A stretch of DNA of 26,055 nt from Thecamonas trahens ATCC 50062. Lineage: Eukaryota; Protista; Apusomonadida. The position numbers were made by a program, and so were the translations under genes. The stretch is taken from assembly GCF_000142905.1 (NCBI RefSeq), contig NW_013657634.1, positions 268,318 to 294,372 of the forward strand, written 5' to 3'. Shown here piece by piece: positions 730 to 25,869 of this stretch (positions within the stretch are counted from its first letter, which is position 1; each line of letters opens with the position of its first letter). The notes beneath the pieces were generated by a model. It was not told the origin of the DNA and searched no databases. It saw nothing but the letters and a program-made list of their open reading frames with translations.

Positions 730-955
730 GTACGCAGCCACAGCACCCGCCCTCCCCACACATACGCACACACACAAGCACTACAAGCACTACACGCTAC
801 TCCCTCCCAACCTCCCCCCCTCCTCCCCCCCCTTTTACCCCATTCCCCCCCCTCCCCTCCTTCCCCCCCCCCTCGCCCCGTCCCCCTCCCCCTCCACCTG
901 GCAATGGAAAGAAAGCCCCTCAGCGTTCCTTCCACCCCTTCCCCACCCTCCACAG
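730..955 (+). other. Spliceosomal intron (226 nt, phase 0) in MVP. Donor GTACGC, acceptor CACAG.
   Basis: GT at 730-731 and AG at 954-955. The interior is pyrimidine-rich with a poly-C/CT tract at 820-900 and CA repeats at 760-800. Removing it restores the conserved MVP N-terminus in frame. Confidence 0.75.
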
Positions 956-3523
956 GTCATTCGTGTCCCGCCGTTCTCGTACATCCACATTCTGGATAAC
1001 AATGTCAATGTGACGTCGATTGTGGCAGGGCCGCGGACGTACACTCGCCCGGATCATGTCCGGGTTGTGCTGGGGCCAGAGAAGATGATTACCATTCCGC
1101 CTCGGCACTACTGTGTGGTGGGTAACCCGGTGGTTCGCGATGACGGGGGCAACCCGGTGGTGGACGAATACGGGCAGTACAAGCTGCGGTTTGGCGACGA
1201 GGAGGTCCGCGAGGCGCAGGACCGTTTCCCGCTGTACCCGGGCGAGTCGCTGGTGACAGGCGTGACGCAGATGCCGGTGATCGAGACGAACACGGCGATG
1301 CTGCTGCGGGCCAAGCGCGATTTTAAGCAGACGCTTGCCGACGGCGCGACTGTCGACCGCATTGCCGGTGAGGAGTGGCTTGTTCGTGGGCCGACCGTGT
1401 TCAAGCCGATGGTGGAGGCCGAGTATGTGCGGACGGTGGAGGCGACGGTGGTGCGGCCGAACCAGGCGCTGCGTCTGCGTGCACGGCGCGACTGCATCGA
1501 CGCCAATGGGGTGCAGCGGCGGACGGGCGAGGAGTGGCAGCTGCGGTCCGAGGGCGCATACCTGCCGTCCGTTCACGAGGTGGTTGTCGACGTTGTCTCG
1601 GCGTATGTGCTGACCGAGAAAACGGCGCTGCACCTTCGTGCGACGCGCAACTTTGACGACGCGCTCGGAGTGAGCCGCCGGGCCGGCGAGGAGTGGTTGG
1701 TCACGCTCGCCGACGCCGACCAGTACATCCCGGATGTGTACGAGGCTGTGGTGGGCCAGATCGAGATCACGACGCTGACGAACCGGCAGTACTGCGTGGT
1801 GGTGGACCCTGTCGACGCGAAGACCGGTCGGCAGCGGTTCGGGCACCGCGAGGTGCGGATCGGCGAGCGGTCGTTCTTCCTCAACCCAGGCGAGCGACTC
1901 GAGTCGGGCATCGAGGACGTGTACGTGCTCGGCGAGGACGAGGCGCTGGTGATCCGCGCCAACCAGGCGTTTGACGACGTGGTGGCGAGCCGCGGCGCCG
2001 ACGGGGCGGTGACCGAGACAACGGTGGCGCGGACGCCCGGCGACCTGTGGATGATCATGGGCCCGCGCGAGTACTTTCCGCGGGTCGAGGTCTCTGTTGT
2101 TGACGTCCGGCGGGCGATTCCGCTCGACGACAACGAGGGCATCTACGTCCGCAACATCACGTCTGGCGAGGTGACGGTTGTCTCGGGCGAGAGCTACATG
2201 ATCCGCGAGGACGAGGAGCTGTGGCGCAAGGAGCTGCCGGCCGACGTGGAGGCGCTGCTGGCCAACGCTGCGACGCGCGACCCGCTGGCAGACCGGCACG
2301 CCCGCGGCAACGACGACAACACCTCGGCGTCGGGTCGCGACATGACGCGGGCGGTGACGTTCCGGGTCCCGCACAACGCGGCGGTGCAGATCTACGACTA
2401 CAAGCTCAAGGAGTCGCGGGTGGTGTTTGGCCCGGACCTTGTACTGCTCCGGCCGGACGAGCAGTTTACGCCGATCTGCCTCTCGGGTGACAAGCCGAAG
2501 CGGCCGAACGTGATCAAGTCGCTCGCGCTGCTGCTCGGCCCGGACTTTGCAACAGACATCATCACGGTGGAGACGTCGGACCACGCCCGGCTCTCGCTGC
2601 AGCTCTCGTACAACTGGCACTTTGACGTCGACCGGTCGTCGCCCGAGTCGGTCCGCAAGCTCTTTTCGATCTCGGACTTTGTGGGCGACATGTGCAAGCG
2701 CATCGCGTCTCGGGTCCGTGGCGCTGTGGCGCAGGTTCCGTTTGACGTCTTCCACAAGACCTCGGCGACGCTCATTCCCGCGGCCCTGTTTGGGCAGGAC
2801 GACGAGGGCAACGTCGGCAGCTACTACAAGTTCCCGGGCAACAACCTGGTCATCACCTCGATTGACATCCAGTCGGTGGAGCCGGTCGACCAGCGGACGC
2901 GCGACTCGCTCCAAAAGTCGGTCCAGCTCGCCATCCAGATCACCACCGCCTCGCAGGAGGCGACGGCCAAGCACAACGCCGCCCGCGTCGAGCAGGAGGC
3001 CCGCGGCGCGCTCGAGCGCCAGCGCATCCAGGACGAGGTCCGCGCCGAGGAGTCGCGCAAGGAGCTGCTCTCGCTCAAGGCCCTCTCTGCCGCCGTCGCC
3101 TCGTCCGGCCAGGCCACCGCAGAGGCCAAGGCCCGCGCTGAGGCCGCCAAGATTGCTGGCGAGTCGTCGCTCGAGGAAGCCAAGCTCAAGGTCAAGGCCC
3201 AGGAGATCGAGTCCACCGCCGAGCTTGCCCGCCTCGTCGCCCACCAGAACGCAGAGGTCGACCACATGCGCAAGCTCAACGAGCTCGAGGTCGCCAAGGC
3301 CCGTGCAGAGGCCGACATTGAGACCAAGCGCTGGGTCGAGTCGGTCGCCGCCCTCGGCCCCGAGACCATCCGCGACCTTGCTCGCGCCGGCCCCGAGACC
3401 CAGGTCGCGCTCCTCAAGTCGCTTGGTATCTCGTCGGTCCTCGTCACCGACGGCAACTCGCCCATCAACCTCTTCAACACCGCCTCGGGTCTCATCGGCT
3501 CGGGTGCCGGCGCTGACCAGTAG
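956..3523 (+). CDS. MVP: Major vault protein, exon 2 (vault repeats, shoulder and cap-helix).
   Basis: Near-colinear matches to MVP: PPRHYCVV, FPLYPGE, ALRLRARRDC, TGEEWLV (repeated), NEGIYV, VPHNAAVQIYDY, LLLGPDF, DHARLSLQLSYNWHF, SVEPVDQRTRDSLQKSVQLAIQITT, and a coiled-coil C-terminus ending PINLFNTASGL. Stop TAG at 3521-3523. Confidence 0.92.
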   Translation, partial: VIRVPPFSYIHILDNNVNVTSIVAGPRTYTRPDHVRVVLGPEKMITIPPRHYCVVGNPVVRDDGGNPVVDEYGQYKLRFGDEEVREAQDRFPLYPGESLVTGVTQMPVIETNTAMLLRAKRDFKQTLADGATVDRIAGEEWLVRGPTVFKPMVEAEYVRTVEATVVRPNQALRLRARRDCIDANGVQRRTGEEWQLRSEGAYLPSVHEVVVDVVSAYVLTEKTALHLRATRNFDDALGVSRRAGEEWLVTLADADQYIPDVYEAVVGQIEITTLTNRQYCVVVDPVDAKTGRQRFGHREVRIGERSFFLNPGERLESGIEDVYVLGEDEALVIRANQAFDDVVASRGADGAVTETTVARTPGDLWMIMGPREYFPRVEVSVVDVRRAIPLDDNEGIYVRNITSGEVTVVSGESYMIREDEELWRKELPADVEALLANAATRDPLADRHARGNDDNTSASGRDMTRAVTFRVPHNAAVQIYDYKLKESRVVFGPDLVLLRPDEQFTPICLSGDKPKRPNVIKSLALLLGPDFATDIITVETSDHARLSLQLSYNWHFDVDRSSPESVRKLFSISDFVGDMCKRIASRVRGAVAQVPFDVFHKTSATLIPAALFGQDDEGNVGSYYKFPGNNLVITSIDIQSVEPVDQRTRDSLQKSVQLAIQITTASQEATAKHNAARVEQEARGALERQRIQDEVRAEESRKELLSLKALSAAVASSGQATAEAKARAEAAKIAGESSLEEAKLKVKAQEIESTAELARLVAHQNAEVDHMRKLNELEVAKARAEADIETKRWVESVAALGPETIRDLARAGPETQVALLKSLGISSVLVTDGNSPINLFNTASGLIGSGAGADQ

Positions 3524-3592
3524 ATGCGTCGATTTGCGATTGAATGCTTCCCCCCACCCTTGTCCGACCATCATTGACTTTACTGTCCCAGC

Positions 3593-5988
3593 CTACAGCT
3601 CCTGCTTGCGCGCCGCCATTGCTGCCTGAGCGGCGGCGAGCGCGGCGGCATACGCGTCGTCGGCGTTGGCGCCGTCGTTGGCGGCAGATCCGGCGCTGTC
3701 TGTGGCGTCAAAGTCGTCGAGCTCACCGGCTGCCGCCGCGGCGTCGTCGCCGTCCTCATAGTCAAAGTCATCGAGCGACTCGGCGCCAAGGACGGCCGCG
3801 TCGGGAAGCGGCAGTGTTCGCTCGCGGCCGCGGGCAACCCGGTCGACAAACTGGGCAACAGCATCGGGTTTGAGGGCGCCGACGTAGACCGCGTACCGAG
3901 CCTTGGCCGGATCGAGAACAACCAGGGCCGGGAAGCCAAACTCCAAGTGCAGCGCTTCGTTGAACGACAGGTGGTGCGACTTGAGCCAGACTGGGCGAAC
4001 AGAGGTGGCCTTGGCCTTGCCCGCCGCCGCGCGGAGCAGGCCGCGGTACCGCAGGTTGTCCTGTGCAAACTCGGCACCGGGCGCAGCATCAAGGACCATC
4101 AGCAGGCACATGCCGGACGACTTGTCAAGGCAGGCCTGGGAGAGCCCGTCCTGATCGGCGGCGTAGGCGAGCGGAAGCGGCTTGGCCTTGGCCTTGGCCT
4201 TACTCTTGGTCTTGGTCTTGGCCTTAGCCTTGGTCTGCCCGGGCACCTCGCCGTTCTCGATCATCTCGACCTCGGCCAGGAGCTGGTTCATAAACGCACG
4301 CAGGTGCTTGAGCTTGTACGGGCCCTGATAAGGGATGAACCGGATCTGGGCGCGGTCGCCACCAAACGAGCCGGCGACAAGCAGGGCCGGGAATGACTCG
4401 ATCGAGTCCATGCCGGCGATGAACTGGGTGTTTTCGGCTGGAATCTGGGCAAAAAACAGCTTCCCACGGTAGTCGCGGGCGAGGATCTTGTACATGGTCG
4501 AGACGGTCTCGGCCTCGGAGAACAGAATGACCTTGGGCGTCGCCAGGTTATGCTGGAAAAACGCCGAGGTCGCCTCCTGGGTCTTGAGCTGCATCACATA
4601 GTTGGGCACGAAGCTCAACGCCCACTCGTAGAGCGGCTTGGCCTCGCGCGGCCCATCGTAGCGCACCGGCTTGCGCTTGGCGTTGAGCGGAAAAGCAACG
4701 AGTGCCGACTCGCCGGGCGCAAGGCTGTCCATGCCGTACTTGGCTGCGAGCTTGGGCTCAGCCTCGACATCAACCAGTCCAGTGTGGATCTTGGAGACTA
4801 GCTTGCGCGAGACCTTGTCCCACAGCGGCCTGCCAGCAGGCTCGCTGGTGTAGCTCGCGTGGCCCGCGTCGCGGACAAACTCGATGACCCACGCAATGTC
4901 CTCCACAAGGACTCGCTCGGTAAAAGCCGGCTTGTCGAGGATCTCGTAGCCAGGGCGGGCGGCCTCAGCCTCGGCCTTGGCGCGCGCGGCTTCGGCCTTG
5001 GCCTTGGCAGCCTCGGCCTTGGCGGCCTTGCGCGCCGCGCGCGCCGCGCGCGCCTCTTCCTTGGACAACGGCTTGACGTGTTCAACCTCGAGGCCATGCT
5101 CGGCCGCCACGTCGTCGACAAATGGTGGAGGACACCCAGAGTGATTTTGCCGTCGCGGCCGTCGCGGGCGGCGAGGACGGCGCCACTCACCGGGTCGATG
5201 GCCAGCAGGCCGACCTTTTCCAGCGGCGCACCGCTTCCGCCGTACCGGTGCCACACCGCGGCCATGGCCTCTGGCTTGGAGATACATGCCACACTCACAG
5301 CACCGCGGTGCTTGAATGCCAACATATCGAGAGCAATGAGCGGCTCGTCGCGCAGAAGAAGCACCAGCGGACCGTCAGTCGAATCCTTGGGCAGGGCGTC
5401 CTTGGCCACGACGCCGTCGGCCAGGCCACCGGCGAGCAGCGCAGCCGTATCGGCCTCAAACTGCTCGCGAAGGATGCCCGCCAGCCACTTGGCCACCAGC
5501 GCCTCGGAGAACTGTTCGGCGGTGTAGCGGACGGGCGACTTGTATGCGGCGCCTGCGGCATACGGATTGACCTTGAGCGCGGTAAAGGCATGCAAGGTCG
5601 GCAAAGTGGGAACCTTGTATGCCTTGAGCGTCTTGGCCGATGCCTCTGAATGCCGCACAATGCCGTAGCGGACTCCGATCTTGGCCATTCTTGGCGCAGC
5701 GCGGGTGAGCTGGGCCTCCAGCTGCGGACAGACCTTGCACATCTCGGCATCGCCGACATACAGAACCAGCCAGACCTCTGAATGCGGCGCCTTGATGACC
5801 ATCTCGTCAAAGTTGTCATCATTAAGCTCGACCAGTCCGCCCGCCTTGCCGGCCTTGCCCGCCTTGCCCGCCTTGCCGGCCTTGCCCTCTGCGCACTCGA
5901 CGGTCAGCACCAGGCCGACCAGGCCGACCATGGCCAGCAGGACCAGTACCCCTGCAGCCGTCCTCCGCATTGTCTGTCGTCGTGCCAT
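3593..5988 (-). CDS. ER-luminal protein of the protein disulfide isomerase family with multiple thioredoxin folds. It has a signal peptide, an acidic tail and a C-terminal KQEL. The active sites are noncanonical (CKVC and AGHA). It is read from two ORFs joined by a 1-nt frameshift.
   Basis: The N-terminus has a hydrophobic signal sequence, (GKA)5, and a thioredoxin-like domain with MCKVC (complement 5728-5739). The protein contains RDGK...FVDDVAAEHGLEVEHVKPL, which resembles the PDI b' domain end RDGK..[18 protein letters not shown]. It has VIEFVRDAGHASY...PLWDKV, resembling VEFYAPWCGHCK..PIWDKL but with both cysteines replaced. It has YDGPREAKPLYEWAL, resembling YTGPREADDIVNWL. The tail is acidic and ends in KQEL (complement 3596-3607). 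ORFs 4798-5988 and 3593-5287 are both on the minus strand in different frames. They switch at the AAA run at + 5120-5122. Confidence 0.75.
4181..4236. repeat. Hexanucleotide (CTTGGC)n repeat lying inside the PDI-like CDS, where it encodes KAKAKTKTKSKAKAKAK.
   Basis: Direct tandem repeat. It is in frame with the minus-strand ORF. Confidence 0.85.
5843..5887. repeat. 9-bp tandem repeat (GCCTTGCCS)x5 encoding (GKA)5 just after the signal peptide of the PDI-like protein.
   Basis: Perfect 9-mer periodicity, in frame. Confidence 0.85.
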
Positions 5989-6009: not shown

Positions 6010-6125
6010 GTGTGGGTGGTGGGGGTGAGGGGGTTGGGGGTGGTGGGGGTCTTCGTGAATGTTGGTGCGTTGGTGGTGAGGTCAGCAGGGACGGGGGGGG
6101 GAGGGGGAGGGGAGGGGGGGGGGGC
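6010..6125. repeat. Homopurine G-tract (GGGGAGGGG-type) in the divergent intergenic region between the PDI-like gene and ALG9.
   Basis: Runs of GGGG..GAGGGGGAGGGGAGGGGGGGGGGGG at 6088-6125 and a G-rich stretch at 6010-6050. The same motif recurs at 1-10, 18786-18825 and 25992-26029. Confidence 0.85.
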
Positions 6126-6144
6126 ATCATATGAGCCCACCCAC

Positions 6145-6184
6145 ACATACATACATACATACATACATACATACATACATACAT
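6145..6184. repeat. Microsatellite (ACAT)x10.
   Basis: Direct tetranucleotide repeat. Confidence 0.95.
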
Positions 6185-6513
6185 GCGTATGTGTATACTT
6201 ACGTTTTCACACGCACATGTGTGCGCACCTCTCTGATCACACACCCCTCCCATGTCTTCCTCCTCCCACGCGATCATCATCGCCTCAATCACCATCGCAG
6301 GCTGCAGAGGTAGGCCACATGACGATGACGGGCTGGCAGATATACCATCGCACATGACCAGCATCACTGGCCACTTACACCTTCCGGCGGTCGGTCCGGC
6401 CGATGCCACGCGGGTGACTTGGTCCCCCCCCAAAGGCTCAGCACTGTGTCGACCGACACGGCTGGTCACGACACGCGACTCGTGGCCACAGTACCGATAG
6501 ACAAACAGGTGAC

Positions 6514-8379: not shown

Positions 8380-8396
8380 ACGCGCGGTGCTTACCG

Positions 8397-9824: not shown

Positions 9825-10110
9825 GATTAGTCGTTGCCCATGGTTAGTCGTTGCCCATGGTTAGTCGTTGCCCATGGTTAGTCGTTGCCCATCATCAGTC
9901 ATTGCCCATCATCAGTCGTTGCCCATCATCAGTCGTTGCCCATCATCAGTCCTTGCCCATCATCAGTCCTTGCCCACCATCAGTCATTGCCCATCATCAG
10001 TCGTTGCCCATCATCAGTCGTTGCCCATCATCACTCGTTGCCCATCATCACTCGTTGCCCATCATCACTCGTTGCCCATCATCAGTCGTTGCCCATCATC
10101 AGTCATTGCC
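9823..10110. repeat. 17-bp minisatellite of about 17 tandem copies (consensus CATCATCAGTCGTTGCC, with variants CATGGTTAG.., ..CACTCG.. and ..GTCCTT..).
   Basis: Exact 17-nt periodicity across 288 bp. It starts at the F-box/WD start codon and ends about 100 bp before the myosin ATG. Confidence 0.95.
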
Positions 10111-10139
10111 GCCATTCCAACGGCCCAACACCACGTCAC

Positions 10140-10200
10140 TGCCACCACCACACACTCACACACACACACATCCACAAACACACACACACACACATCCATA
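10140..10200. repeat. Imperfect (CA)n microsatellite immediately upstream of the myosin ATG.
   Basis: The sequence reads cacacactcacacacacacacatccacaaacacacacacacacacatcc. Confidence 0.85.
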
Positions 10201-10208
10201 CACATACC

Positions 10209-13200
10209 ATGTCGACCCTCCAGATAGGTGACATGTGCTGGGTGGAGAACCTGGCAGCAGGTACTAGCGGAGGAGAGCAGGCCTCCCATGGCCACCACCC
10301 GTCGCGAGTGGCAGGCAAGGTCCTCGCCGTCTCGGACTCGATGGTGACGGTGGCCCCAGAATGGGGCGAGCTCTGTCCGACCTGTGCCCTCAAGCCGGAG
10401 CATACGCCTGCTCATCGTCCGGCAAAGGTCAACGTTCCGCTGGGAAACTCGGCAGACGCGGGCCAGCTCGCCGTGAGTGTCATGGACACGTCCAACGCCG
10501 AGGGGAGGGCAGACATGATGGAGCTGGCTGATCTGGCGGTGGGCGAGCTGATGTACAACCTGAGGTTGAGGTACAAGGCCCAGCCCATGCAGTTCTACAC
10601 ATATGTCGGGGACATCCTGGTTGTCGTCAATCCCATGGCGGACATGGGCGTCTCTGGCGAGGAGACAAAGGCTACGTACGCCGGCCTGCCGTTCCGCGAT
10701 GCGAGCGCCCCGCCGCACATCTACGCCGTCGCCGAGGCTGCCCACAAGGCGCTCGCCGAGACGGCCGCTCCGCAGGTCATCGTCATCTCGGGCGAGTCTG
10801 GCGCTGGCAAGACATACGCCACCAACGACGTGCTCGACTTTCTGGCCTACCGCGGCAGCGGGTGCGACCCAGCTCCTGCTCCCGGTCCTAACGCTGGCGC
10901 TGCTCCTTCTCCGCCCGGGGCGGAGATTGTGGCCAAGATCCGGGCTATCTCGGGCGTCATTGAAGCGCTGGGCAATGCCAAGACGTCGCGGAACCACAAC
11001 TCGTCGCGGTTTGGCAAGCTCGTCAAGGTCCAGTTCGACGAGGCCGGGGCCATCGAGGGCGCCGCGCTGCAGACGTACCTACTGGAAAAGTCGCGGATTG
11101 TCGACCAACAGCCCGGTGAGCGCAACTACCACATCTTCTACCTCATGTTCCAGTTCCTCGACCGCGGTGAGCGGTCGGCGCGCGGTCTCTCGGACTCGGT
11201 CGCGGACTACCCGTACCTCGTCGGCTCGCACGGCAAGAACGCCAAGTCATGGCAGTACATGCCTAGCGATCCGTCGGCGCCGCAAGCCGGGCTCGAGCCC
11301 ATGGCCGACGCCAAGCGGTGGGAGGCGTTCATCGACGCTGTTGTCACGCTTAACCTCGAGGACGATCTCTCGTGCGTGTGGGACACGCTCGCCGCCATCC
11401 TGCACCTCGGCACGCTGACTTTTGAGGAGCACGCTGGCTCTTCGACCGGCTTTTGCACCGTCTCGCCGCCTGGAGTTGTCTCGCGCATTGCAGGCCTCCT
11501 CGCTGTCGACGCCGACGCTCTGGCCACCAATCTGCTCTCGTGCGAGGTCGTCAACATGCGCCGTGCGTACCGACCCGACAAGGCCAAGCAGACCGCCGAC
11601 GCGCTGGCCAAACTCCTTTACGCCTCGCTCTTTGACGTCATCATCGAGCACATCAACGCGTCGATCAAAACCGGCTTCACCCGCCGGTGGATCGGCGTCC
11701 TCGACATCTTTGGCTTTGAGTCGTTCCAGTCGCTGCCGGACAAGCACGGCGTGCCCGACACCGCCAACCGGTTTGAGCAGCTCTGCATCAACCTCACCAA
11801 CGAGCGCCTGCAGCGGTTCTTCTACGACCAGCTCATTCCCAAGCAGCTCGCCCACTACGCCGACCACGGGCTCGACGTCGACGCCATCGAGTACGACGAC
11901 AACACCCTCTGTGTCAACCTCATCATGGAGGGCCGCAAGTCGCTCTTTGGCGCCCTCAACAACGCCACCAAGGAGGCTGCCACCCTTCCGGCCTTCCGCA
12001 ACAACCCGGAGCTTGCCGAGCGGCGCTGGGTCGAGACCATCAAGTCGACGTACAAAGGCGGCAAAGGCCGTCTCGCGCCCTCGACCGTAGTCCGCAAGTC
12101 CTCGCCCGACGAATTTGTCGGCTGGTTTGATGACAAGCTTGACTCGCGGGCCCACACCCAGTTTGCCGTCCACCACTACGCTGAAACCGTGTGGTACACC
12201 GTCGACGGGTGCGTCGAGAAAAACGCCGACAAGATTGCCCCCGAGCTTGTCACGCTTGTCTCGTCCTCATCGGCCGCCTTTGTCGCCGGCCTTTTTGATC
12301 CGGACCGCCTCGAGCTCAACACCTCGGTTGCCGACAAGTTTGCCGAGCAGCTGCGGGCACTCGTCTCGCCGGCGTCGTGGAACGTGCCTGGCCACCCGTC
12401 GGGCATGCTTGACCTTGCAGCGGAGCCTTTTTTCGTTCGCTGCGTCAAGCCAATCTGCTCGCGGGTGCCCGGCATGCCGCGTGCGCCGCTCTCCAACCAC
12501 AAGGTGCTCGACCAGCTGCGGTCCGCCGGTATGTACGCGGTCATCCAGATGCGGCTTGCCGGCTATGCGTCTGAAGTGGACAAGGCCCAGTTTGTCGAGA
12601 CCTACACCGAGCTTGTTGACGACATGGCAGCGTTCAACTCACTCTCGCTTGACAACCAAGTCCGCTCCATTTGTGCATCCGTCGTCGCCTCTACTCAGCA
12701 CGACTTGACAAGCGAATCCGGCATGGCGCCGTACCAGATCGGCAACTCAAACCTGGTCTTCCTCAAGGACGCCATGAACTACGCCCTGCGCGACGCGCTC
12801 GCTGCGGCTCGCGCGGCGCGTGCGGCCAAGCAAGCGCTGGCGCTCTCGCATTTTGCGGCGCTTTTCTCGATGTGGAGCGTCCGCCAGTCGATGCCGCGGC
12901 TGGTGCAGGTCTACGAACAGAACCAGGAACGCCTCGAGTTTATCCGGACCCGCATCGAGGGTGGTGCAAGCGAAGCAGAGGCCAAGGCCGCATGGGACGC
13001 CGAGCTCGCCACCCGCGCCGCGGCCATGGAGGCCGAATACAAGCTCGAGCATTTTATCCCGCTGCAAAAGGCCGCCGCCGCCGAGCCAGTCGACAAGCTC
13101 GACGCCGCCATTGCCAACATGCTCAAGGACGAGCCAGCCGGTGAGGCGCGCGCGGCTCTCGAGGCTAGGCGCAAAGCGCTGAAGGCATCGGCCAAGGCGG

Positions 13201-14846
13201 TTAACGCCGCGCTTGCTGCGCTCGAGGCCGACGTGTACAACGCCGAGGCCGAGACCGCTGCCGCAGACGCCATTGCTGACCTGGACGCAGTTGTTCTCGC
13301 CGAGGAGGCCGCGTATGCAGAGGACGTCAAGCGGCGCGAGGCGGCCGCCGCTGCTGCTGCTGAAGCCGCGTACATTGCCACGCATGTGACGTCGGTGGAG
13401 ACTGCGGCGAACGCGGTGCCGTTCGCCAAGGTCAAGGCCGCACTCACGGCGTTTGGCAAGCGGCATGCCAACATCCTCGGCAAACGCGAGAACCTTGAGA
13501 GCGCACTCCATGCTCATGGGGCCTCGCTCGACGACGCTCGCGCAGCGCTTGAGGCGCGGCTGGACGAGTTGCGGGCAAGCCCGCATTCAGACGAAGTGCA
13601 AGCCGGGGTGGCGACGGCGCTATCGGCGCTCGAGGTGCTCGTTGGCGGCGTCCACGAGTTCCTGCGGCTGATGGAGGAGCGCGTGGCGATGGCAGCGGCG
13701 GCGGAGGAAGCCAAGGAGCGCAAGCGCGAGGCGCGGCGCAGAAAGCGTGAGGCGCGCGAGGCACGGAAGCGCAAGCTGCTGGAGGCGCGGCAGGCCATGC
13801 TCTCGGCGCAGGAGCGAGTGGCCGCGGAGCGGGCGGCGGAGCGCAAGCGGCAGGAGGAGGCCAAAAAGCGGGCGGTGAAGCTGCTCAAGAAGAAGCAGAA
13901 GCGGCGGCTGCGGTGGTTCGAGACAGCAAGCGTGGCCATGGACGGCCTGCGTGTCTTGTTCCACCATGCCGAGGCCACGGTGCGGTACCTTGGCCCGCTG
14001 CCGTCGGCATCGGTCAACCTCCTCACGGCGCCCTACTACATCGGGCTGGAGATGCCGTATCCGTCGGATTTGTTCAACTCGGGTGACTACGAGGGTACGC
14101 AGCTGTTCGAGTGCTCGCCGGAGCATGGCATGTTTGTGGCGCAGGACTTGGTCTCGGTCCTGGTCGCCAGCGACGAGCTTCGCGCCGGCGAGCGGCATCT
14201 GCAGGTCGGCGACCGGGTGTGGCGGCGGAACCATGTTCCGCTGCAGACCGGCGTCATCATGTACTACGGTGAGACTCACTTTGACGAGGGCCCGTTTGTG
14301 GGCATCGCCCTCGACCAGGCCGGCTCTGGCACCAACTCGGGCCGGGTCCACGGCTTCAAGTACTTTAAGTGCGCCAAGGACTCGGGCCTGTTTCTGCGGC
14401 CAGAAGAGCTCGAGCGGATAGAGCCGTGGTCGCACTCTGTCGTCAAGGAGCGAACCAACGAGTACATGATTCTTAACGACATTTATCTCGACGACGACGA
14501 GTACTCGGAGTACGATGGTGACGAGGAGGATGGGACCAGCTCGCGGGCCAGCTCACGGCCGGCGTCGGGTGACGACTCGTCGTCGGGCGCGGTCTCCGAG
14601 ACCGTTCTAGACGCCATGGATCCCGACGAGCTCTACGCGCTTGCCGGTGGCGATGCCATGCTGACCGACGGCGCGTCTGAGCCGCTCTCGTCGGGAGTGC
14701 GGCTCAAAAAGTCACGGCTCTCGCGGCGCGGATCGGGCGCCGGTCGGTCGATGTCGATGCGCAATGTCGAGACAGCGCGGAGTGGACATCTAGTGCCGCC
14801 GATGCAGCGGGCGGCGTCGTCGCGAAACCGGATGCGCCGACGGTAG
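10209..14846 (+). CDS. Myosin heavy chain (motor domain, ~600 aa coiled-coil/charged tail, C-terminal CAP-Gly domain).
   Basis: Motor motifs are the P-loop GESGAGKT (10791-10814), switch I NSSRFGKLV, switch II LDIFGFE, LRLRYKA, and an HIFY-type relay. The tail is rich in A/E/K/R heptads. The C-terminus carries a CAP-Gly signature LQVGDRVWRR..GVIMYYGETHFDEGPFVGIALDQAGSGTNSGRVHGFKYFKCAKDSGLFLRPEEL (~14196-14430). The start is taken as ATG 10209 (MSTLQIGD), after the minisatellite. The upstream part of the ORF track entry 9885-14846 is a translated repeat. Confidence 0.9.
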   Translation: MSTLQIGDMCWVENLAAGTSGGEQASHGHHPSRVAGKVLAVSDSMVTVAPEWGELCPTCALKPEHTPAHRPAKVNVPLGNSADAGQLAVSVMDTSNAEGRADMMELADLAVGELMYNLRLRYKAQPMQFYTYVGDILVVVNPMADMGVSGEETKATYAGLPFRDASAPPHIYAVAEAAHKALAETAAPQVIVISGESGAGKTYATNDVLDFLAYRGSGCDPAPAPGPNAGAAPSPPGAEIVAKIRAISGVIEALGNAKTSRNHNSSRFGKLVKVQFDEAGAIEGAALQTYLLEKSRIVDQQPGERNYHIFYLMFQFLDRGERSARGLSDSVADYPYLVGSHGKNAKSWQYMPSDPSAPQAGLEPMADAKRWEAFIDAVVTLNLEDDLSCVWDTLAAILHLGTLTFEEHAGSSTGFCTVSPPGVVSRIAGLLAVDADALATNLLSCEVVNMRRAYRPDKAKQTADALAKLLYASLFDVIIEHINASIKTGFTRRWIGVLDIFGFESFQSLPDKHGVPDTANRFEQLCINLTNERLQRFFYDQLIPKQLAHYADHGLDVDAIEYDDNTLCVNLIMEGRKSLFGALNNATKEAATLPAFRNNPELAERRWVETIKSTYKGGKGRLAPSTVVRKSSPDEFVGWFDDKLDSRAHTQFAVHHYAETVWYTVDGCVEKNADKIAPELVTLVSSSSAAFVAGLFDPDRLELNTSVADKFAEQLRALVSPASWNVPGHPSGMLDLAAEPFFVRCVKPICSRVPGMPRAPLSNHKVLDQLRSAGMYAVIQMRLAGYASEVDKAQFVETYTELVDDMAAFNSLSLDNQVRSICASVVASTQHDLTSESGMAPYQIGNSNLVFLKDAMNYALRDALAAARAARAAKQALALSHFAALFSMWSVRQSMPRLVQVYEQNQERLEFIRTRIEGGASEAEAKAAWDAELATRAAAMEAEYKLEHFIPLQKAAAAEPVDKLDAAIANMLKDEPAGEARAALEARRKALKASAKAVNAALAALEADVYNAEAETAAADAIADLDAVVLAEEAAYAEDVKRREAAAAAAAEAAYIATHVTSVETAANAVPFAKVKAALTAFGKRHANILGKRENLESALHAHGASLDDARAALEARLDELRASPHSDEVQAGVATALSALEVLVGGVHEFLRLMEERVAMAAAAEEAKERKREARRRKREAREARKRKLLEARQAMLSAQERVAAERAAERKRQEEAKKRAVKLLKKKQKRRLRWFETASVAMDGLRVLFHHAEATVRYLGPLPSASVNLLTAPYYIGLEMPYPSDLFNSGDYEGTQLFECSPEHGMFVAQDLVSVLVASDELRAGERHLQVGDRVWRRNHVPLQTGVIMYYGETHFDEGPFVGIALDQAGSGTNSGRVHGFKYFKCAKDSGLFLRPEELERIEPWSHSVVKERTNEYMILNDIYLDDDEYSEYDGDEEDGTSSRASSRPASGDDSSSGAVSETVLDAMDPDELYALAGGDAMLTDGASEPLSSGVRLKKSRLSRRGSGAGRSMSMRNVETARSGHLVPPMQRAASSRNRMRRR

Positions 14847-14849
14847 CAG

Positions 14850-17602
14850 TTAGGGCGTAAAACAGGTCTCCAGATGAAAGTGGTAGTCGACGAGCGACGT
14901 GGCCGAGACGGCAGTGGTGGCGGCGTAGACGGCCGAGGCGAGCGAGGAGTTACCAGAGAAGAAAACGCCGACAGCGGCGTTGGGCCGGGCGAGAAGGCCC
15001 GAGTCGGAGACCACATCCTCGGCGTCGAGGTAGGAAAAAGCCGGGCCATGTCGGGCCGACCGCGGATGACGGTAAAAGGGAGCGCAAGAAAGACGTCGCG
15101 GGTGACAAAGAGGCGAACGTCGAGGGTGAGATCAGGCTCGTGGATAGAGGTGTAGAACTGGGACTCGAGCACCTCGAGCACGTCCTGGAACCAACGGAAC
15201 GAGTCGAGGTCGCGGCAGACCCACCAAAAGTGGAGATGCTTGAGTGGGAGAGCGAGACCGTGCTGGAGCCGGAAAATGATGTCGGAGAGGACGGCGGCGT
15301 AGGGAGTGACCCCGATGCCGGACGCGATGAGGACGGCGCGGTGGTAGGAGAGATACGGGTGCGGGTCCGAGCCAAACGGGCCCGCGACGTAGAGCCGGAG
15401 CGATGACGCCGGTGACGTCGGGTCCTCGATGCCGGACGCGGAGGACTCGGCGAGCGCGTAGACCTGACGGGTCCAAGAGTCGCGGGCGCCGACAGCCTTA
15501 AAATACACGTGCACGTGCTCCATAAGCGGCGAGGAGGCGACCGAGAACGGATGCCACTGCAGCTTGGAAATGCTTGGTAGGTGGAGGTGGACGTAGTCGC
15601 CGAGGGCGAGGGCGCGCGTCATGCGCGCCGACTTGACAAAGGCAACATGGACGACCGATCCCGGGAGCGCGTCGAGCGCGACAATGCGGGCGTCGGCGAG
15701 CGCGTGTGGCGCCGAGATGCCGCGCGCAATGAGGTAGAGAAGATAGCCCGGTGCGATGTAGTAGAGGGTACGGAGGGTGGTGGGATGCGCGACGAGGAGG
15801 AGCGGGAGGACGAGCGCGAGCTGATGTGGGTAGTAAAAGACCTCAAAGGCGATGCGGCGGATCTTCGGGTGTGCAAGCGGGACAATGGCGAGCATCAGAA
15901 GGAGGAGAAGGATGCCGGAGAGGCCGAGCCAGGTCGAGAAGACAATGGTGAGCGGCGAGTTGTGGGTGCGAAAGGCGGCGAGCGGGGTGCCCGGCGCAAA
16001 GGCCAGGTCGCGATCAGCCTGCGATGCAGCGGCAGTGCGAAAGGCGTTGACAACGTGAGCAGCGGTGTGGCCGAGAGCGCAGGCAAAGGTGGCCACTCCG
16101 CCGAGCCGATGGAAGAGCATCATGTGCTCCTGTGAGGGCCGGAGCCAGAGCGTGGCGGAGCGAGGCATGCGCGGCAGAAAGACTCGAACGACGGTGGTGT
16201 AGGTGGCGAGGCAGACCGGGAGAAAGAGAAACGCGACGCCGACGCGGATACCCGCGGCAAAGACCTTGGCGGCAACGAGCGAGGCACCAAGAATGCGGTG
16301 TGCTGCGTAGGAGCGGGCGATACGCGCGATGTAGACTGACTCGAGGGTGACAGCAAGGCAGATGAGGGCAAGCCAGAGGCAAAACGCTGGGTCGAGCTTG
16401 GCATGCATGCGGGCGGTGGAAGCGGCGGCGGCGACCGAGGCCCGGAGCGATGCGAGGTGCGAGGTCGCCGGCGCCGCGCTGGATGCCGAGCCGGAGATGC
16501 CGTAAGAGGCGAGTCGGGCGAGAACGCCTGCGGGCAGGTCTGTGGCAGTGGCGAGTGAGCTCCACTGAGCCGGCTCGAGGGCGAGAACGTCGCCGACGGT
16601 GGCGAGCTCCTGGAGCGCAAACTGTGCCATCCAGAGTTTCGCGCGCTCACGGCCGACGTTGGGTGAGAGCTTGAGATCCTCGGCGACAGCGAGGAGGGCG
16701 GCCAGAAGCGGTGCGTCTGGTGAGAAGGCGACTGTCGAGTATGTGCGGTGGGTTGTGAGCCAGGATCGCCACTGGCGAGTGGTGGGTGTAGCGTGGATGT
16801 GGAGGGTGAGCTCGGTGGCATGCTCGAGCTCGCCCCAGGTAAAGGCGGAGATGAAGCGCGGCCAGTCAAGGACGATGCTGCCGACCGGACGGGTCGGCGA
16901 GGCCGGCGACGAAAACGAGATGGCGCGCGAGCGCGAGAGGCTCGGGGAGAAGGCCTCGTTGTCGGCGGCGACCGAGGAGGCGAGCCACGAGCTGTGGATC
17001 TCGGCGACGAGATCGTCGCCAGCGAGGGCAGCGCCGCCGGGAGCGGCAAGAATGAGATGCGGGATGTTGCAGAGGGTGGCGAGGGAGAGCTCAGCGCCGG
17101 CTGTGGTGGAGCCGGCTGCCATGAGGAAGACAAACATGAGGCGGAGCTTCTGTGGCGCCTCGCCAGCAAAGGCCGAGGCAAAAGCGAGAAACTCAAGGAG
17201 TGGGACGGAGGGAGCGCGGGACGAGAGGCGCTTCTTCTTGGAGGGCGGTGGCGGGCGAGCGAGAATGGCGAAGAGGAGATCGACGGTGGAGGAGGCCGCA
17301 TCCCAGCCCGTCAGTCGGGCAAAGGCACGGCGGGAGAGGCGGTAGGTGAGGTTCGATGCGATGGCAAAGACGTGGGCCCAGCGCTTGATGAGCGAGTCGG
17401 GGCGGAAGACCCAGGCAGTGGCGACGCGAGTCATACCGCGGCCAAAGCGGAGGATGCGGCGACGCATGCCGGTGATAGGACAGACGCCCGTGGAGACGCC
17501 GAGCATGGCCTTTGCCGACTCGAGGGCGATGGATGCGTTCTGGAGGCTCCGCCAGTAGCTCGCAGCCGAGGCATCAAGTAGAGGCCTCTGCGCCGTGAGC
17601 AT
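14850..17602 (-). CDS. NADPH oxidase / ferric reductase (NOX/FRE) family protein with a ~400-aa N-terminal extension of unknown function. The C-terminal ~60 aa are read in a -1 frame relative to the long ORF.
   Basis: A TM region carries heme-ligand histidines (HRLGG..GHTAAHVVN, YYPHQLAL). FAD-binding HPFS is at about + 15545-15560. NADPH-binding GIGVTPY is at about + 15291-15311, with CRDLDSF. GRPDMARLF resembles NOX GRPNWDNEF. In the other frame, AAVGVFFSGNSSLASAV...DYHFHLETCFTP-stop matches the NOX2 C-terminus [15 protein letters not shown]...HFIFNKENF with the same spacing. The frames switch at the A5 run at + 15035-15039. The stop (TAA, complement 14850-14852) lies 3 bp from the myosin stop. 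Confidence 0.85.
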
Positions 17603-18785
17603 CAGCCATAGAGGAGGCCCAGACGGAACCCAGCGTCTCTCGTATACCCTCTAGCGACTCGGTCCGTCTTGTCCGTCCTCTTCGCTCTGAAAGCTGCCCT
17701 CCTCTCGGCAGTCGGCTGCGCCGACCTGCTGATGACGACGATGACGACCGCGCCCAAATCGAGCCGTGGTCGTTGCTTTTGTCGTTGTAGCCATCGTTGT
17801 TGCAGTCATCGCCGTTGCCTGCTGGCTGGGCCATCTGCTGCCGATTCGATACCGTCTCGCGGTGCCTCAGTCTGCGATCTGTCGATGGCTTCATCTGCTT
17901 GCTCTTGGACCGAGTCTGGTCGCTGGCATGCGCACTCGTCACCTGTGACCTCCCTCCGTTTGCTGCCGGTTGTGTATGCAGAGATTCAGTGCTCCAGCTC
18001 GAGGTCGACGAAGCCATCACGGCTCGAGTAGAGGGGTGTCCGAGTTGGGTGCGACGGGCTACACCTGTCGAGTCGCCAGGACTGGCGGCGTGCGGATGGC
18101 GCCTTGGCAGCTCCGACTGTGTCGACACAGTTGGCTCGTGAGGAGCAGGAGCTCATCCATCCCGCCCGTTGATGACGATCCATGATGACGATCATGATGG
18201 GTGTCTTCTTGGCGGCCAATTCCTACCTTGATCGCATGCGTACGCAAGCATGTGGGTCATCCGTGCCAAGCGGCAGCTGCACGGATGTGCTGGCATAGAG
18301 GCTGATGAGACCGTCGAGCCAGCGGATCGACCACTTGGCCGGCAACCAATGGTGTGGCCAGATCAGCTGGTAAACATCGCTGCTCACTCGGGTGCTCATG
18401 TGTCAGCACAGAGTCACCTCATCGCTTGCGAGAGGTCATGCCCGACTGCCGAGTGCCGAGTGCGCGGGCAGAGTTTGGTCAGCAGCCGGCCGCTTCCCGA
18501 GCCGGAGCCACATACACGCACACCCTTGACACTTGACGCAGGCGGGTACACACTTGACGAGATATGTCTGCAAGAGGTAGTGGAAGCTCTGCATCGGCGT
18601 CTGGGTGGTGCCTGCCGACGGCGGCAGGCTCTGGTTGGGCCTTCTGGAAGGAGGTCAAGGCCGACAAGCACAGGCTGTTCACCATGCAGAAGCACAAGAG
18701 CCATGGCAAGTCGAGGTTCTCGGCTTTGGCGTCATCGGTTACCGTATGTGAGTGTGTGTATGGGGGAGGAGTGGGAGGAGTGGGA

Positions 18786-18825
18786 GGGGGGGGGAGGGGG
18801 GGGGGGGGGGGGGGGTGGACTCATG
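18786..18825. repeat. Poly-G / GGGAGG homopurine tract.
   Basis: The sequence is gggaggggggggggagggggggggggggggggggggtgg, followed at 18837-18905 by a (GGTGAT/GGTGGT)n microsatellite. Confidence 0.9.
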
Positions 18826-18979
18826 AGTGGTGATGGTGATGTCGATGGTGATCGGGGTGGTGATGATGATGCTGGTCGGGGTGGTGATGGTGATGATGGT
18901 TGTGCGGGCTATGGCCATGGTGGTTATGCGGGTTGTGTGGGTCGTGGTCATCTGGGTCAAACAGAAAACGGTGCGCGGC

Positions 18980-24600: not shown

Positions 24601-24666
24601 TTTGAGCGGCGGCTGGCGCGGACAGCGCGGTACGTCCACCAGCAGGAACTCCGACCTCTATCGTAA
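21622..24666 (+). CDS. Novel low-complexity coiled-coil protein with four near-identical 79-aa tandem repeats (RPQMRKWRQGTSGFKTSPALEKLKARQEAMRKQRAAAAAA-DADADADDGDGDGDSSDSYGSVVEHDDEPAAEVKAEA) and a fifth degenerate copy.
   Basis: A 1014-codon ORF. It carries in-frame 237-bp units at 22207, 22441, 22678 and 22915, with more than 97% nucleotide identity. A diverged copy sits at about 23311-23500. The N-terminus is a degenerate 12-nt periodic G/D/M-rich region (21706-21850). Heptad coiled-coil segments flank the repeats. The C-terminus is S/P/R-rich. I recognise no conserved domain. The start codon is uncertain. Confidence 0.6.
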   Translation: MDRSRDREGGSKGEGGTMSMNKDGMGMGMGVEADMDMATEAGVDVGADIGLDTGIVTGTEAGIVRGADTGMDVALTPPTVDHVQATGRALVDVVKQQAEEIKVLKAQLDGANRQLVLAEEEKGAVKQLLVKTEVNLANQVAARKTLAKRVVAVLDALRTGVLDLAHVTAALMDGCSPETDETVSGEDIVEPVAENRPQMRKWRQGTSGFKTSPALEKLKARQEAMRKQRAAAAAAADADADADDGDGDGDSSDSYGSVVEHDDEPAAEVKTEARPQMRKWRQGTSGFKTSPALEKLKARQEAMRKQRAAAAAAAADADADADDGDGDGDSSDSYGSVVEHDDEPAAEVKAEARPQMRKWRQGTSGFKTSPALEKLKARQEAMRKQRAAAAAAAADADADADDGDGDGDSSDSYGSVVEHDDEPAVEVKAEARPQMRKWRQGTSGFKTSPALEKLKARQEAMRKQRAAAAAAADADADADDGDGDGDSSDSYGSVVEHDDGSESADSVVEHDDKPVGETRSWRAGFNTSPALERLTETRSAAAGRVHPAANAGGTDDAAKPVERPQMRKWRQGTTGFKTSPALGKLKARQEAMRKQRAAAAVAATTAAVADADASDDSDSCGSVVERSSEGSSSAGSMVDNGSPAPREILGLPAESPPNRRAGRPESLRDRRLRLRNTRRATSSDHTMDAAMRAAMLRAGRTMSASAAEERFEEQQSQSELEAAANAAHNEANSTTLYDSSSDGDDDVIVVNAATSGIARGHSWLDVERPRGEAIDFEHKPNARGLNVSFSSNLSHIFGETSSDDDDDVPDASATTAELLRQLVEARKENIDLARTVSELTLEVSRLTQSLTAASAAKASLAAGAGLIVAGVQTEPRIVDNVAVQTLPPDVAHVSVQTEVERDGGPVSAAGASNVKLDELSSQLHLAQAQNEELMRMLRSPSLSLSPMPRSPSAASPLTPVTARARSSFSRSPSLTGSSPVPLDSPARARARAAFERRLARTARYVHQQELRPLS
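22207..23118 (+). repeat. Coding minisatellite: 4 x ~237-bp near-identical tandem units inside the CDS 21622-24666.
   Basis: Units 2 and 3 differ by about 1 nt (gcagccgag versus gcagtcgag). Unit 1 is 3 nt shorter. Confidence 0.95.
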
Positions 24667-25707: not shown

Positions 25708-25869
25708 CTACATATGGATGTGGATGCAAGTGAGTGGGTGTGGTCAATGACCTTGGTGGGGGGAGGGGAGGGCGGAGGAGGGCAGTTTGCGGAGATGATG
25801 GCCATCTCGGCTCATCCCAGACGGCAAGGGCCAGGGCATGGGTGGGATGAGGGGCAGGGCAGTGCGTAC
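25708..25869 (-). other. Spliceosomal intron (162 nt, phase 1) in the La gene. Donor GTACGC, acceptor TATGTAG.
   Basis: On the minus strand the junction reads gac ggc t|GTACGC ... tatgtag|tt gtt cct. Removing the intron deletes an in-frame P/H-rich low-complexity insert (CTHCPAPHPTH...HLHPHPY) from the middle of the conserved La motif. It creates codon TTT (F), which aligns with the W of the La consensus. The intron is C-rich on the transcribed strand. Confidence 0.8.

What the first reader, a model, noticed from the sequence alone, without database searches (positions are those of the whole stretch)
3593..5988. PDI-family ER protein with noncanonical active sites, split by a 1-nt indel in an AAA run
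Two overlapping minus-strand ORFs, 4798-5988 and 3593-5287, are clearly one gene. The first has a signal peptide and an N-terminal thioredoxin fold. The second has further thioredoxin folds, an acidic tail and KQEL. Both frames are coding across the junction. RDGKITLGVLHH in frame A and FVDDVAAEHGLEVEHVKPLSKEE in frame B together resemble the PDI/ERp57 b' domain end [26 protein letters not shown]. The switch maps to the A3 run at + 5120-5122. The first thioredoxin domain has CKVC instead of WCGHC. The a'-like domain has DAGHAS instead of WCGHCK, with both cysteines lost. So this is a largely redox-inactive PDI-like chaperone with one odd CxxC. This is the second homopolymer frameshift in the window, after the NOX one. 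That suggests residual long-read indel errors in this assembly, or an unusual biology of A-run slippage in a 65% GC genome.
Basis: partly seen in the sequence, partly recalled or inferred. Interest (0 to 1): 0.5.

Follow-up and report, generated by a model that had tools for sequence, protein, structure and literature searches.

The report
PDI-like gene broken by sequencing error
The two overlapping reading frames are one ordinary gene for an ER protein-folding helper of the protist Thecamonas trahens, split only because one base is missing from a short A-run, most likely a sequencing or assembly error.

Summary
Minus-strand ORFs 4798-5988 and 3593-5287 are two halves of one gene of about 798 codons for a protein disulfide isomerase (PDI)-family protein. 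It has an N-terminal signal-like segment, five thioredoxin-like domains (a-b-a'-b'-D), an acidic tail and a C-terminal KQEL.

The rival reading, a 92-nt GTGAGT..GAG intron at 5099-5190 that also restores the frame, is rejected on four grounds:
- The closest relative, a 527-aa protein (P0151) from a marine survey run (Tara Oceans accession, by my recollection), reads straight through this stretch in one frame. It matches 18 of the 31 disputed residues, across the frame switch (VLHH|FVDDV versus VLHS|FVADV).
- The 92 nt carry normal codon bias, in frame A and then in frame B, with the best switch point exactly at the A3 run 5120-5122.
- The three introns I mapped in the window look different.
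- AlphaFold folds the 31 residues into the missing strand and helix of the second domain.

The NADPH oxidase (NOX) gene in the same window has the same defect, one base short in a T5 run at 15035-15039. The window is from Thecamonas trahens ATCC 50062. The likeliest cause is homopolymer miscalling in the assembly. No slippery heptamer is present at either site, and no exceptional downstream RNA structure at the PDI site.

The active-site calls are right: CKVC replaces CGHC in domain a, and DAGHAS (no cysteine) replaces WCGHCK in domain a'. Interest is low.

The parts
3593..5988 (-). Whole coding region of the PDI-like gene. ATG at 5986-5988, stop at 3593-3595. It gives 798 codons once one T is added to the T3 run.
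   Evidence: Collinear profile match of 215 bits to 700-780-aa homologues.
5890..5988 (-). N-terminal signal-peptide-like segment (residues 1-33: basic start, about 20 hydrophobic residues, then ...VECA). It is followed by five GKA repeats at 5839-5886.
   Evidence: Read from the translation. No signal-peptide predictor was available, so a signal anchor is not excluded.
5458..5832 (-). Domain a: thioredoxin domain (residues 53-177).
   Evidence: Pfam Thioredoxin E 1.3e-9. AlphaFold pLDDT 81-91.
5728..5739 (-). CKVC, the only CxxC motif. It sits in the CGHC column.
   Evidence: Alignments. Homologues show CGHC, CAPC, CGPC, CHLC and CQPC in this column.
5099..5367 (-). Domain b: first non-catalytic thioredoxin-like domain (residues 208-297). 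Its last strand and helix are encoded by the disputed 92 nt, 5099-5190.
   Evidence: AlphaFold strand 271-276 and helix 284-297 at pLDDT 76-82. The same region falls to 46-53 in the intron model.
5120..5122 (-). Frame-switch site: T3 on the coding strand (A3 on +). The functional reading needs T4: CAC CAT TTT GTC = H H F V.
   Evidence: Best codon-score switch point. The relative reads VLHSFVADV against VLHH|FVDDV with no gap.
4958..5062 (-). Ala/Lys-rich long helix linking the two halves (residues 310-344).
   Evidence: AlphaFold helix 310-344. Absent from P0151 and shorter in the other homologues.
4616..4942 (-). Domain a': thioredoxin-fold domain with a dead active site (residues 350-458).
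   Evidence: Weak matches to PDIA6 a domains in solved structures. AlphaFold pLDDT mostly 86-92, with a dip to 59-60 at residues 371-390.
4853..4870 (-). DAGHAS in the place of PWCGHC. Both cysteines are absent.
   Evidence: Alignment. P0151 has SGADQT here. Green-algal homologues keep one Cys. Mantamonas and others keep CGHC.
4256..4597 (-). Domain b': second non-catalytic thioredoxin-like domain (residues 465-578). It is followed by a Lys/Ala/Thr-rich disordered linker at 4187-4249.
   Evidence: AlphaFold. 46% identity to P0151 over this region.
3833..4171 (-). Domain D: PDIA6-type C-terminal thioredoxin-like domain (residues 607-719), with an invariant cysteine pair C620/C628.
   Evidence: Pfam Thioredox_PDIA6_C, 39.9 bits against a cut-off of 27. 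Invariant columns.
3596..3781 (-). Acidic disordered tail (3665-3781), a C-terminal helix, and KQEL (3596-3607).
   Evidence: Translation. Low pLDDT at 737-775. Nearly all homologues end in KDEL-like tetrapeptides.

Best explanation
This is a single, intact-looking gene of Thecamonas trahens for an ER-resident protein of the PDI family. The assembled sequence is one base short in a run of three T's on the coding strand (A3 at + 5120-5122). That artificially splits the gene into two overlapping ORFs. The most likely cause is a homopolymer-length error in sequencing or assembly.

With the base restored, the product is a 798-aa protein with these parts:
- a signal-like N-terminus;
- a thioredoxin domain with an unusual CKVC site (a);
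- a non-catalytic thioredoxin-like domain (b);
- a long Ala/Lys helix;
- a second thioredoxin-fold domain that has lost both active-site cysteines (a');
- a second non-catalytic domain (b');
- a PDIA6-type C-terminal domain (D);
- an acidic tail and KQEL.

Shown: gene continuity, domain order, and the state of the active sites.

Inferred: ER residence through the signal sequence and KQEL retrieval. At most one redox-active site, so the protein would act mainly as a substrate-binding or chaperone-type PDI, or as a single-site oxidoreductase.
For: 1. The closest relative, P0151, reads through the disputed stretch in one frame. It matches 18 of the 31 residues without a gap, across the switch. 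By tblastn, P0151 matches frame -1 at 5265-5125 (E 1e-7) and frame -3 at 4933-3707 (E 6e-117). The 31 residues alone score 71 against P0151, versus 25.7 +/- 4.0 for 5000 shuffles, none of which reached it.

2. The codon-usage score of the 92 nt, read as A then B, is 27.3 bits. True coding windows score 24.4 +/- 10.5, and non-coding windows score -14.8 +/- 13.8. Of non-coding windows, 0.17% reach 27.3, or 1.65% if each is also allowed its best switch point.

3. The best switch point is exactly at the T3 run.

4. With the base restored, AlphaFold builds strand 271-276 and helix 284-297 at pLDDT 76-82. This gives domain b the same element order as b'. The intron model leaves this region at pLDDT 46-53.

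5. The NOX gene in the same window shows the same kind of defect at a T5 run, 15035-15039. The frames abut there (GRPDMARLF|SYLDAEDVV), leaving no room for an intron. Correction raises the NAD_binding_6 score from 44.9 to 53.9 bits.

6. A scan of the whole window finds only these two sense-strand frame switches.

7. Family assignment rests on Pfam, solved-structure sequence matches to PDIL2-3, PDIA6 and Mpd1, and Foldseek matches to ERdj5, PDI, ERp57 and Mpd1p.
Against: - No reads could be inspected, so a genuine 1-nt deletion in the sequenced culture cannot be excluded.
- A run of three is short for a homopolymer miscall.
- I did not establish whether P0151 comes from a transcript or from genomic DNA. 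Either way it is an uninterrupted frame.
- P0151 was in the alignment used for AlphaFold, so the structural comparison is not fully independent of it.
- A profile of distant homologues alone did not discriminate the two models (215.3 versus 214.5 bits).
- Function is inferred from sequence only.
Confidence: 0.8

Rival explanations
1. The two ORFs are exons joined by splicing of a 92-nt GT-AG intron at 5099-5190. This gives a 767-aa protein (...LLAIDP|HGLEVEH...) with no sequence error.
For: Removing 5099-5190 restores the frame exactly, and the 5' end reads GTGAGT. A profile of distant homologues scores this model as well as the corrected one, 215.3 versus 214.5 bits, as a single aligned stretch. 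MAFFT without the close relative aligned HGLEVEHVKP to the DGxxxxYxG turn of the homologues.
Against: - The 'intron' is conserved as protein in the closest relative, in frame A and then frame B.
- It has coding-type codon usage.
- 1108 frame-restoring GT/GC..AG pairs exist around the junction, so finding one is expected.
- The 3' end is GAG with no pyrimidine tract.
- The three introns I mapped in the window are 159-225 nt, low-complexity C- or G-rich, begin GTACGC or GTATGT, and end CAG or TAG.
- The AlphaFold model of the spliced product has a poorly defined end of domain b.
Confidence: 0.03
2. The missing base is real: a recent 1-nt deletion in the sequenced culture or an allele, making this a young pseudogene or a truncated product.
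For: A T3 run is short for a homopolymer miscall, and no reads were available. Neither half of the gene was found as an annotated protein in the collections searched. That absence is uninformative, because neighbouring intact ORFs were not found by exact look-up either.
Against: - Both halves keep full codon bias and homology, with no other defect.
- A second essential-looking gene (NOX), 10 kb away, has the same one-base-short homopolymer defect. That fits a systematic technical error better than two independent inactivating mutations.
Confidence: 0.12
3. The frame change is programmed: -1 ribosomal frameshifting or transcriptional slippage at short A/T runs restores the full-length protein.
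For: Two genes in 26 kb need the same -1 correction at T-runs on the coding strand. The 90 nt after the NOX site fold somewhat better than shuffles (z -1.75, 10 of 200 shuffles as good).
Against: - Neither site has an X XXY YYZ slippery heptamer in the zero frame (C CAT TTG and G CTT TTT, read).
- T3 and T5 are far shorter than known slippage tracts (established knowledge).
- The 90 nt after the PDI site fold no better than shuffles (z +0.90).
- The homologue P0151 has no frame change at the corresponding position.
Confidence: 0.02

Closest known systems
PDIA6 / P5 (plant PDI-M, e.g. rice PDIL2-3), domain order a0-a-b
   Same: Best sequence matches among solved structures are PDIL2-3 (E 4.6e-14) and PDIA6 domains. 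It shares the PDIA6-type C-terminal thioredoxin-like domain (Pfam PF24541, above cut-off), the acidic C-terminal region, and a KDEL-like end. PDI-M is described as a0-a-b and as the plant orthologue of mammalian P5, a BiP partner (PMC5375154).
   Different: P5 has two adjacent catalytic CGHC domains. Here the two a-type domains are each followed by a b-type domain, the first site is CKVC, and the second has no cysteine. The protein is about 350 residues longer than P5.
Unnamed 700-780-aa 'thioredoxin domain-containing' proteins of green and streptophyte algae (Chlorokybus, Chara, Trebouxia, [Myrmecia], Cymbomonas) and of Mantamonas. Possibly the class called PDI-E, to which a 767-aa Chlamydomonas 'PDIA6' was assigned.
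   Same: Collinear over the whole length (215-bit profile match), at about 21-23% identity. Same a-b-a'-b'-D order, an invariant Cys pair in domain D, and a KDEL-like end. The green-algal members also have a degenerate second active site.
   Different: Most members keep WCGHC in domain a, and the algal ones keep one Cys in a'. The Thecamonas protein and its marine relative have none. The long Ala/Lys helix is specific to Thecamonas. The link to 'PDI-E' rests on size and on one detectable thioredoxin domain, as described in PMC7838096. It is a lead and was not tested.
Yeast Mpd1p (a-b)
   Same: Best compact structural match: TM-score 0.66 normalised to Mpd1p, rmsd 4.7 A over 255 columns. There is also a sequence match to residues 395-496. 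Each half of the protein looks like an Mpd1-type a-b unit.
   Different: Mpd1p has a single a-b unit with an active CxxC. Here the unit is duplicated and a PDIA6-type domain is added.
Redox-inactive PDI relatives (ERp27, ERp29, PDILT)
   Same: Thioredoxin-fold ER proteins that have lost catalytic cysteines and act through substrate binding (established knowledge). PDILT is among the Foldseek matches.
   Different: No specific sequence relationship was found. This protein keeps one CxxC.

Membership tests
PDI family (ER thioredoxin-fold proteins) | At least one thioredoxin-fold domain | tested here: met
   Pfam Thioredoxin, 38.4 bits against a cut-off of 23.5. Five thioredoxin-like domains in the AlphaFold model. 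Foldseek matches to ERdj5, PDI and ERp57 at E 1e-21 to 1e-14.
PDI family (ER thioredoxin-fold proteins) | CxxC (or CxxS) active site in an a-type domain, with the cis-proline loop | tested here: met
   CKVC is in the CGHC column. The VPTLPT proline aligns with the gfPT loop of the homologue profile. Redox activity was not tested.
PDI family (ER thioredoxin-fold proteins) | ER targeting signal and C-terminal KDEL-type retrieval signal | tested here: inconclusive
   A hydrophobic N-terminus and a C-terminal KQEL are present, and homologues end in KDEL, KEEL, VNEL or HSDL. No signal-peptide predictor was run, and there are no localisation data.
PDIA6 / P5 / PDI-M | PDIA6-type C-terminal thioredoxin-like domain | tested here: met
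   PF24541, 39.9 bits against a cut-off of 27.
PDIA6 / P5 / PDI-M | Two adjacent catalytic CGHC domains (a0-a) directly before that domain | tested here: not met
   The order is a-b-a'-b'-D. The second site is DAGHAS, without cysteine.
Long a-b-a'-b'-D PDI-like proteins (green algae, Mantamonas, marine protists) | Collinear full-length homology with the same domain order, and a conserved Cys pair in domain D | tested here: met
   Single 212-bit aligned stretch over profile positions 25-651. C620 and C628 are invariant in 18 sequences.
Spliceosomal intron (for 5099-5190) | GT..AG boundaries and frame restoration | tested here: met
   However, 1108 such pairs exist locally.
Spliceosomal intron (for 5099-5190) | Not represented in the homologous protein, and non-coding in composition | tested here: not met
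   18 of the 31 encoded residues are identical to P0151. The codon score of 27.3 bits is typical of coding sequence.
Spliceosomal intron (for 5099-5190) | Resembles the genome's own introns | tested here: not met
   Local introns (MVP 731-955, DUF726 18746-18962, La 25710-25868) start GTACGC or GTATGT, are 159-225 nt and low-complexity, and end CAG or TAG. The candidate is 92 nt and runs GTGAGT..GAG. The sample is only three or four introns.
Programmed -1 ribosomal frameshift site | X XXY YYZ slippery heptamer in the zero frame, plus a stable downstream structure | tested here: not met
   The sequence is C CAT TTG. The downstream 90 nt fold at z +0.90 relative to shuffles.

The most novel reading that the evidence does not exclude
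The one-base deficits at the A3 run in the PDI-like gene and at the A5 run in the NOX gene are genuine in the Thecamonas genome. They would be corrected during expression, by transcriptional slippage or -1 frameshifting at unusually short A/T runs. That would be a recoding habit not described for apusomonads.
Probability: 0.02. Interest if true: 0.6.

Novelty: new member of a known kind. Interest (0 to 1): 0.15.

Why it matters
The main value is practical. The public Thecamonas trahens sequence appears to contain one-base homopolymer errors that break genes, at least two in this 26-kb window. Gene sets and presence/absence calls drawn from this much-used outgroup genome can therefore miss or truncate genes, or acquire false introns.

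Biologically, the repaired gene adds an apusomonad member to a little-studied family of long a-b-a'-b'-D PDI-like proteins. The family is also present in green algae and Mantamonas. Its second active site has decayed repeatedly, which may interest PDI specialists but is not surprising.

Tried and rejected
- Word-indexed homology searches with the full corrected protein and with the N-terminal 262 residues returned nothing. For the full-length query I suspect the low-complexity Ala/Lys words swamped the candidate list. The N-terminal query has no such low-complexity stretch, and its failure is unexplained. The exhaustive profile-free search was needed.
- A metagenome scan for related loci found no relative.
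- Exact look-ups of six candidate products found nothing, and the two control neighbour ORFs were among those not found. This says nothing about whether the gene is annotated.
- A profile of 11 distant homologues could not discriminate intron from frameshift. An alignment without the close relative even favoured the intron-like placement. The question was settled only when a second member of the best hit's cluster, P0151, turned out to span the junction.
- A short NOX C-terminal fragment found no solved structure, and the longer one did not align through the junction. The NOX frameshift therefore rests on codon scores, the Pfam score gain, and the known NOX C-terminal motif.
- Literature searches gave nothing on how the Thecamonas genome was sequenced or on frameshifts in it. 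My recollection that it was a 454-era Broad Institute assembly is unverified.
Full report
**What is there.** On the minus strand, ORF A (4798-5988, 396 aa) and ORF B (3593-5287, 564 aa) overlap by 490 nt in different frames. The window is GC-rich (about 65%), gene-dense and intron-poor. Its neighbours are a major vault protein (MVP), an ALG9-type mannosyltransferase, an F-box/WD40 protein, a myosin with CAP-Gly domains, an NADPH oxidase (NOX), a DUF726 protein and a La protein. The MVP translation is 100% identical to the NCBI protein 'major vault protein [Thecamonas trahens ATCC 50062]'. The window is therefore apusomonad nuclear DNA.

**Two ways to join the ORFs.** The first is to add one base to the T3 run on the coding strand (A3 at + 5120-5122). 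This gives ...GVLHH FVDDVAAE... and a 798-aa protein. The second is to remove a 92-nt GTGAGT...GAG segment (5099-5190). This gives ...LLAIDP|HGLEVEH... and a 767-aa protein.

**Homologues.**
- Word-indexed searches failed.
- An exhaustive HMMER search with the frame-B product found 634 relatives, none above 40% identity.
- Many are 700-780-aa proteins from green and streptophyte algae (Chlorokybus, Chara, Trebouxia, [Myrmecia], Cymbomonas) and from Mantamonas.
- A profile built from eleven of them aligns collinearly with the joined protein. It could not discriminate the two models, scoring 215.3 versus 214.5 bits.
- The decisive sequence was P0151. It is a 527-aa member of the best hit's cluster, from sequencing run ERR1711916, which I recall as Tara Oceans.
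- P0151 begins just upstream of the junction and reads MSALWEAYGNSRESLPEKVGLIALDNQGNVLKATDGSQQKVTLKVLHSFVADVPDAE...
- This aligns without interruption to MAAVWHRYGGSGAPLEKVGLLAIDPVSGAVLAARDGRDGKITLGVLHH|FVDDVAAE....
- By tblastn, P0151 hits frame -1 at 5265-5125 (E 1e-7) and frame -3 at 4933-3707 (46% identity, E 6e-117).
- The 31 disputed residues share 18 identities with P0151. They give an ungapped local score of 71, against 25.7 +/- 4.0 for shuffles (0 of 5000 reach it), at the collinear position and across the frame switch.
- The relative therefore encodes this stretch in one uninterrupted frame, so it is not an intron.

**Codon evidence.**
- I built a codon table from seven long ORFs of the window (GC3 81%).
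- With it, frame A stays positive through 5190-5125, and frame B becomes strongly positive from 5124.
- Read A-then-B, the 92 nt score 27.3 bits. In-frame coding windows score 24.4 +/- 10.5.
- Non-coding windows score -14.8 +/- 13.8. Of these, 0.17% reach 27.3, or 1.65% if each null window is also allowed its best switch point.
- None of 650 windows from the three mapped introns reaches it.
- The best-scoring switch point of all is LGVLHH|FVDDVAAE, at the T3 run. Neighbouring positions within about 6 nt score nearly as well.
- The fit of a GT..AG pair carries no weight, because 1108 frame-restoring GT/GC..AG pairs without stops exist around the junction.
- The introns I could map in the window are MVP 731-955, DUF726 18746-18962 and La 25710-25868. 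A further 5' site lies at the left edge of the window.
- These introns begin GTACGC or GTATGT, are 159-225 nt, are low-complexity C- or G-rich, and end CAG or TAG. The candidate does not look like them.

**Structure.**
- AlphaFold with an 18-sequence alignment gave a mean pLDDT of 75 for the corrected protein.
- Residues 267-297 form strand 271-276 and helix 284-297 at pLDDT 76-82. This completes domain b with the same element order as domain b'.
- The spliced model leaves the corresponding region at pLDDT 46-53, with only a two-residue strand.
- P0151 is in both alignments, so this is supportive rather than independent evidence.

**Cause of the frame break.**
- The NOX gene (17602 down to 14850, minus strand) has the same defect. 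Frame 0 ends ...GRPDMARLF and frame 2 continues SYLDAEDVV...VGVFFSG...FHLETCF. The two abut at a T5 run (15035-15039).
- Adding one T gives a 917-aa protein that ends 3 nt from the myosin stop. It raises the NAD_binding_6 score from 44.9 to 53.9 bits.
- A window-wide scan finds only these two sense-strand frame switches.
- Two one-base-short homopolymers in otherwise intact, conserved genes point to base-calling or assembly error.
- Programmed recoding is unlikely. Neither site has an X XXY YYZ heptamer, and the runs are very short.
- The 90 nt downstream of the PDI site fold no better than shuffles (z +0.90). The NOX site gives z -1.75.
- A real recent deletion cannot be excluded without reads.

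**What the protein is.**
- Pfam finds Thioredoxin (53-140) and the PDIA6-type C-terminal domain.
- Solved-structure sequence matches are to rice PDIL2-3, PDIA6 domains and Mpd1p.
- Foldseek matches ERdj5, PDI, ERp57, PDILT, PDIL2-3 a-b and Mpd1p.
- The model and alignments give this layout:
  - signal-like N-terminus (1-33) and GKA repeats;
  - a (53-177), with CKVC in the CGHC column;
  - b (208-297);
  - Ala/Lys helix (310-344);
  - a' (350-458), with DAGHAS where homologues with an active second site have PWCGHC;
  - b' (465-578) and a Lys-rich linker;
  - D (607-719), with an invariant Cys pair;
  - acidic tail and KQEL.
- P0151 also lacks both cysteines in a'. Green-algal members keep one. 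Mantamonas and others keep CGHC.
- Inference: this is an ER-retained PDI-like protein with at most one redox site, working mainly by binding substrates or partners.

**Comparison with known families.**
- It is not a P5/PDI-M protein in the strict sense, because it lacks the adjacent a0-a catalytic pair that defines that class (PMC5375154).
- It belongs with the long algal and protist proteins. These may correspond to the class called PDI-E, to which a 767-aa Chlamydomonas 'PDIA6' was assigned (PMC7838096). That link is a lead only.

**Verdict.** The observation and the main interpretation are right. The feature is an ordinary gene with a probable sequence error. It is worth flagging for genome quality rather than for biology.

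Noticed in passing
window 14850-17602 (minus), shift at 15035-15039: The NADPH-oxidase gene is one base short in a T5 run. Frame 0 (...GRPDMARLF) abuts frame 2 (SYLDAEDVV...FHLETCF). The corrected ORF is 917 aa and ends at TAA 14850. The uncorrected ORF runs on as a spurious tail to 14633.
   Followed up: yes
window 956-3520 (+): The MVP translation is 100% identical to the NCBI major vault protein of Thecamonas trahens ATCC 50062, which identifies the source organism. The next-best hit is 79% identical, from an ENA sequence set, suggesting related apusomonads in environmental data.
   Followed up: partly
window 731-955 (+), 18746-18962 (+), 25710-25868 (-), about 20 (-): The few introns I could map start GTACGC (three of them) or GTATGT. 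The three fully mapped ones are 159-225 nt, made of C-rich or G-rich low-complexity sequence, and end CAG or TAG. MVP has a 6-codon first exon (713-730).
   Followed up: partly
window 9885-14843 (+): A large myosin ORF (myosin head, E 1.6e-127) carries two CAP-Gly domains near its C-terminus. This is an unusual tail combination.
   Followed up: no
window 3524-3592, 8380-8396, 14847-14849: Convergent gene pairs end extremely close together: 69 nt between the MVP and PDI-like stops, 17 nt between ALG9 and F-box/WD40, and 3 nt between myosin and the corrected NOX. The 3' UTRs must overlap on opposite strands.
   Followed up: no
window 21622-24663 (+): A 1014-aa ORF with good codon usage has no Pfam family at E <= 1e-5.
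   Followed up: no
window 6030-6190 and 18775-18816: Long poly-C/poly-G tracts and a (TGTA)n microsatellite lie in the divergent promoter between the PDI-like and ALG9 genes and inside the DUF726 intron. Such tracts are also error-prone for sequencing.
   Followed up: no
P0151 (homologue, not in the window): The marine relative ends ...QPCGGGRSCKHT instead of a KDEL-like signal and has a Pro/Ser/Arg-rich linker where Thecamonas has KAKAK repeats. Its C-terminus may itself be frameshifted or truncated.
   Followed up: no
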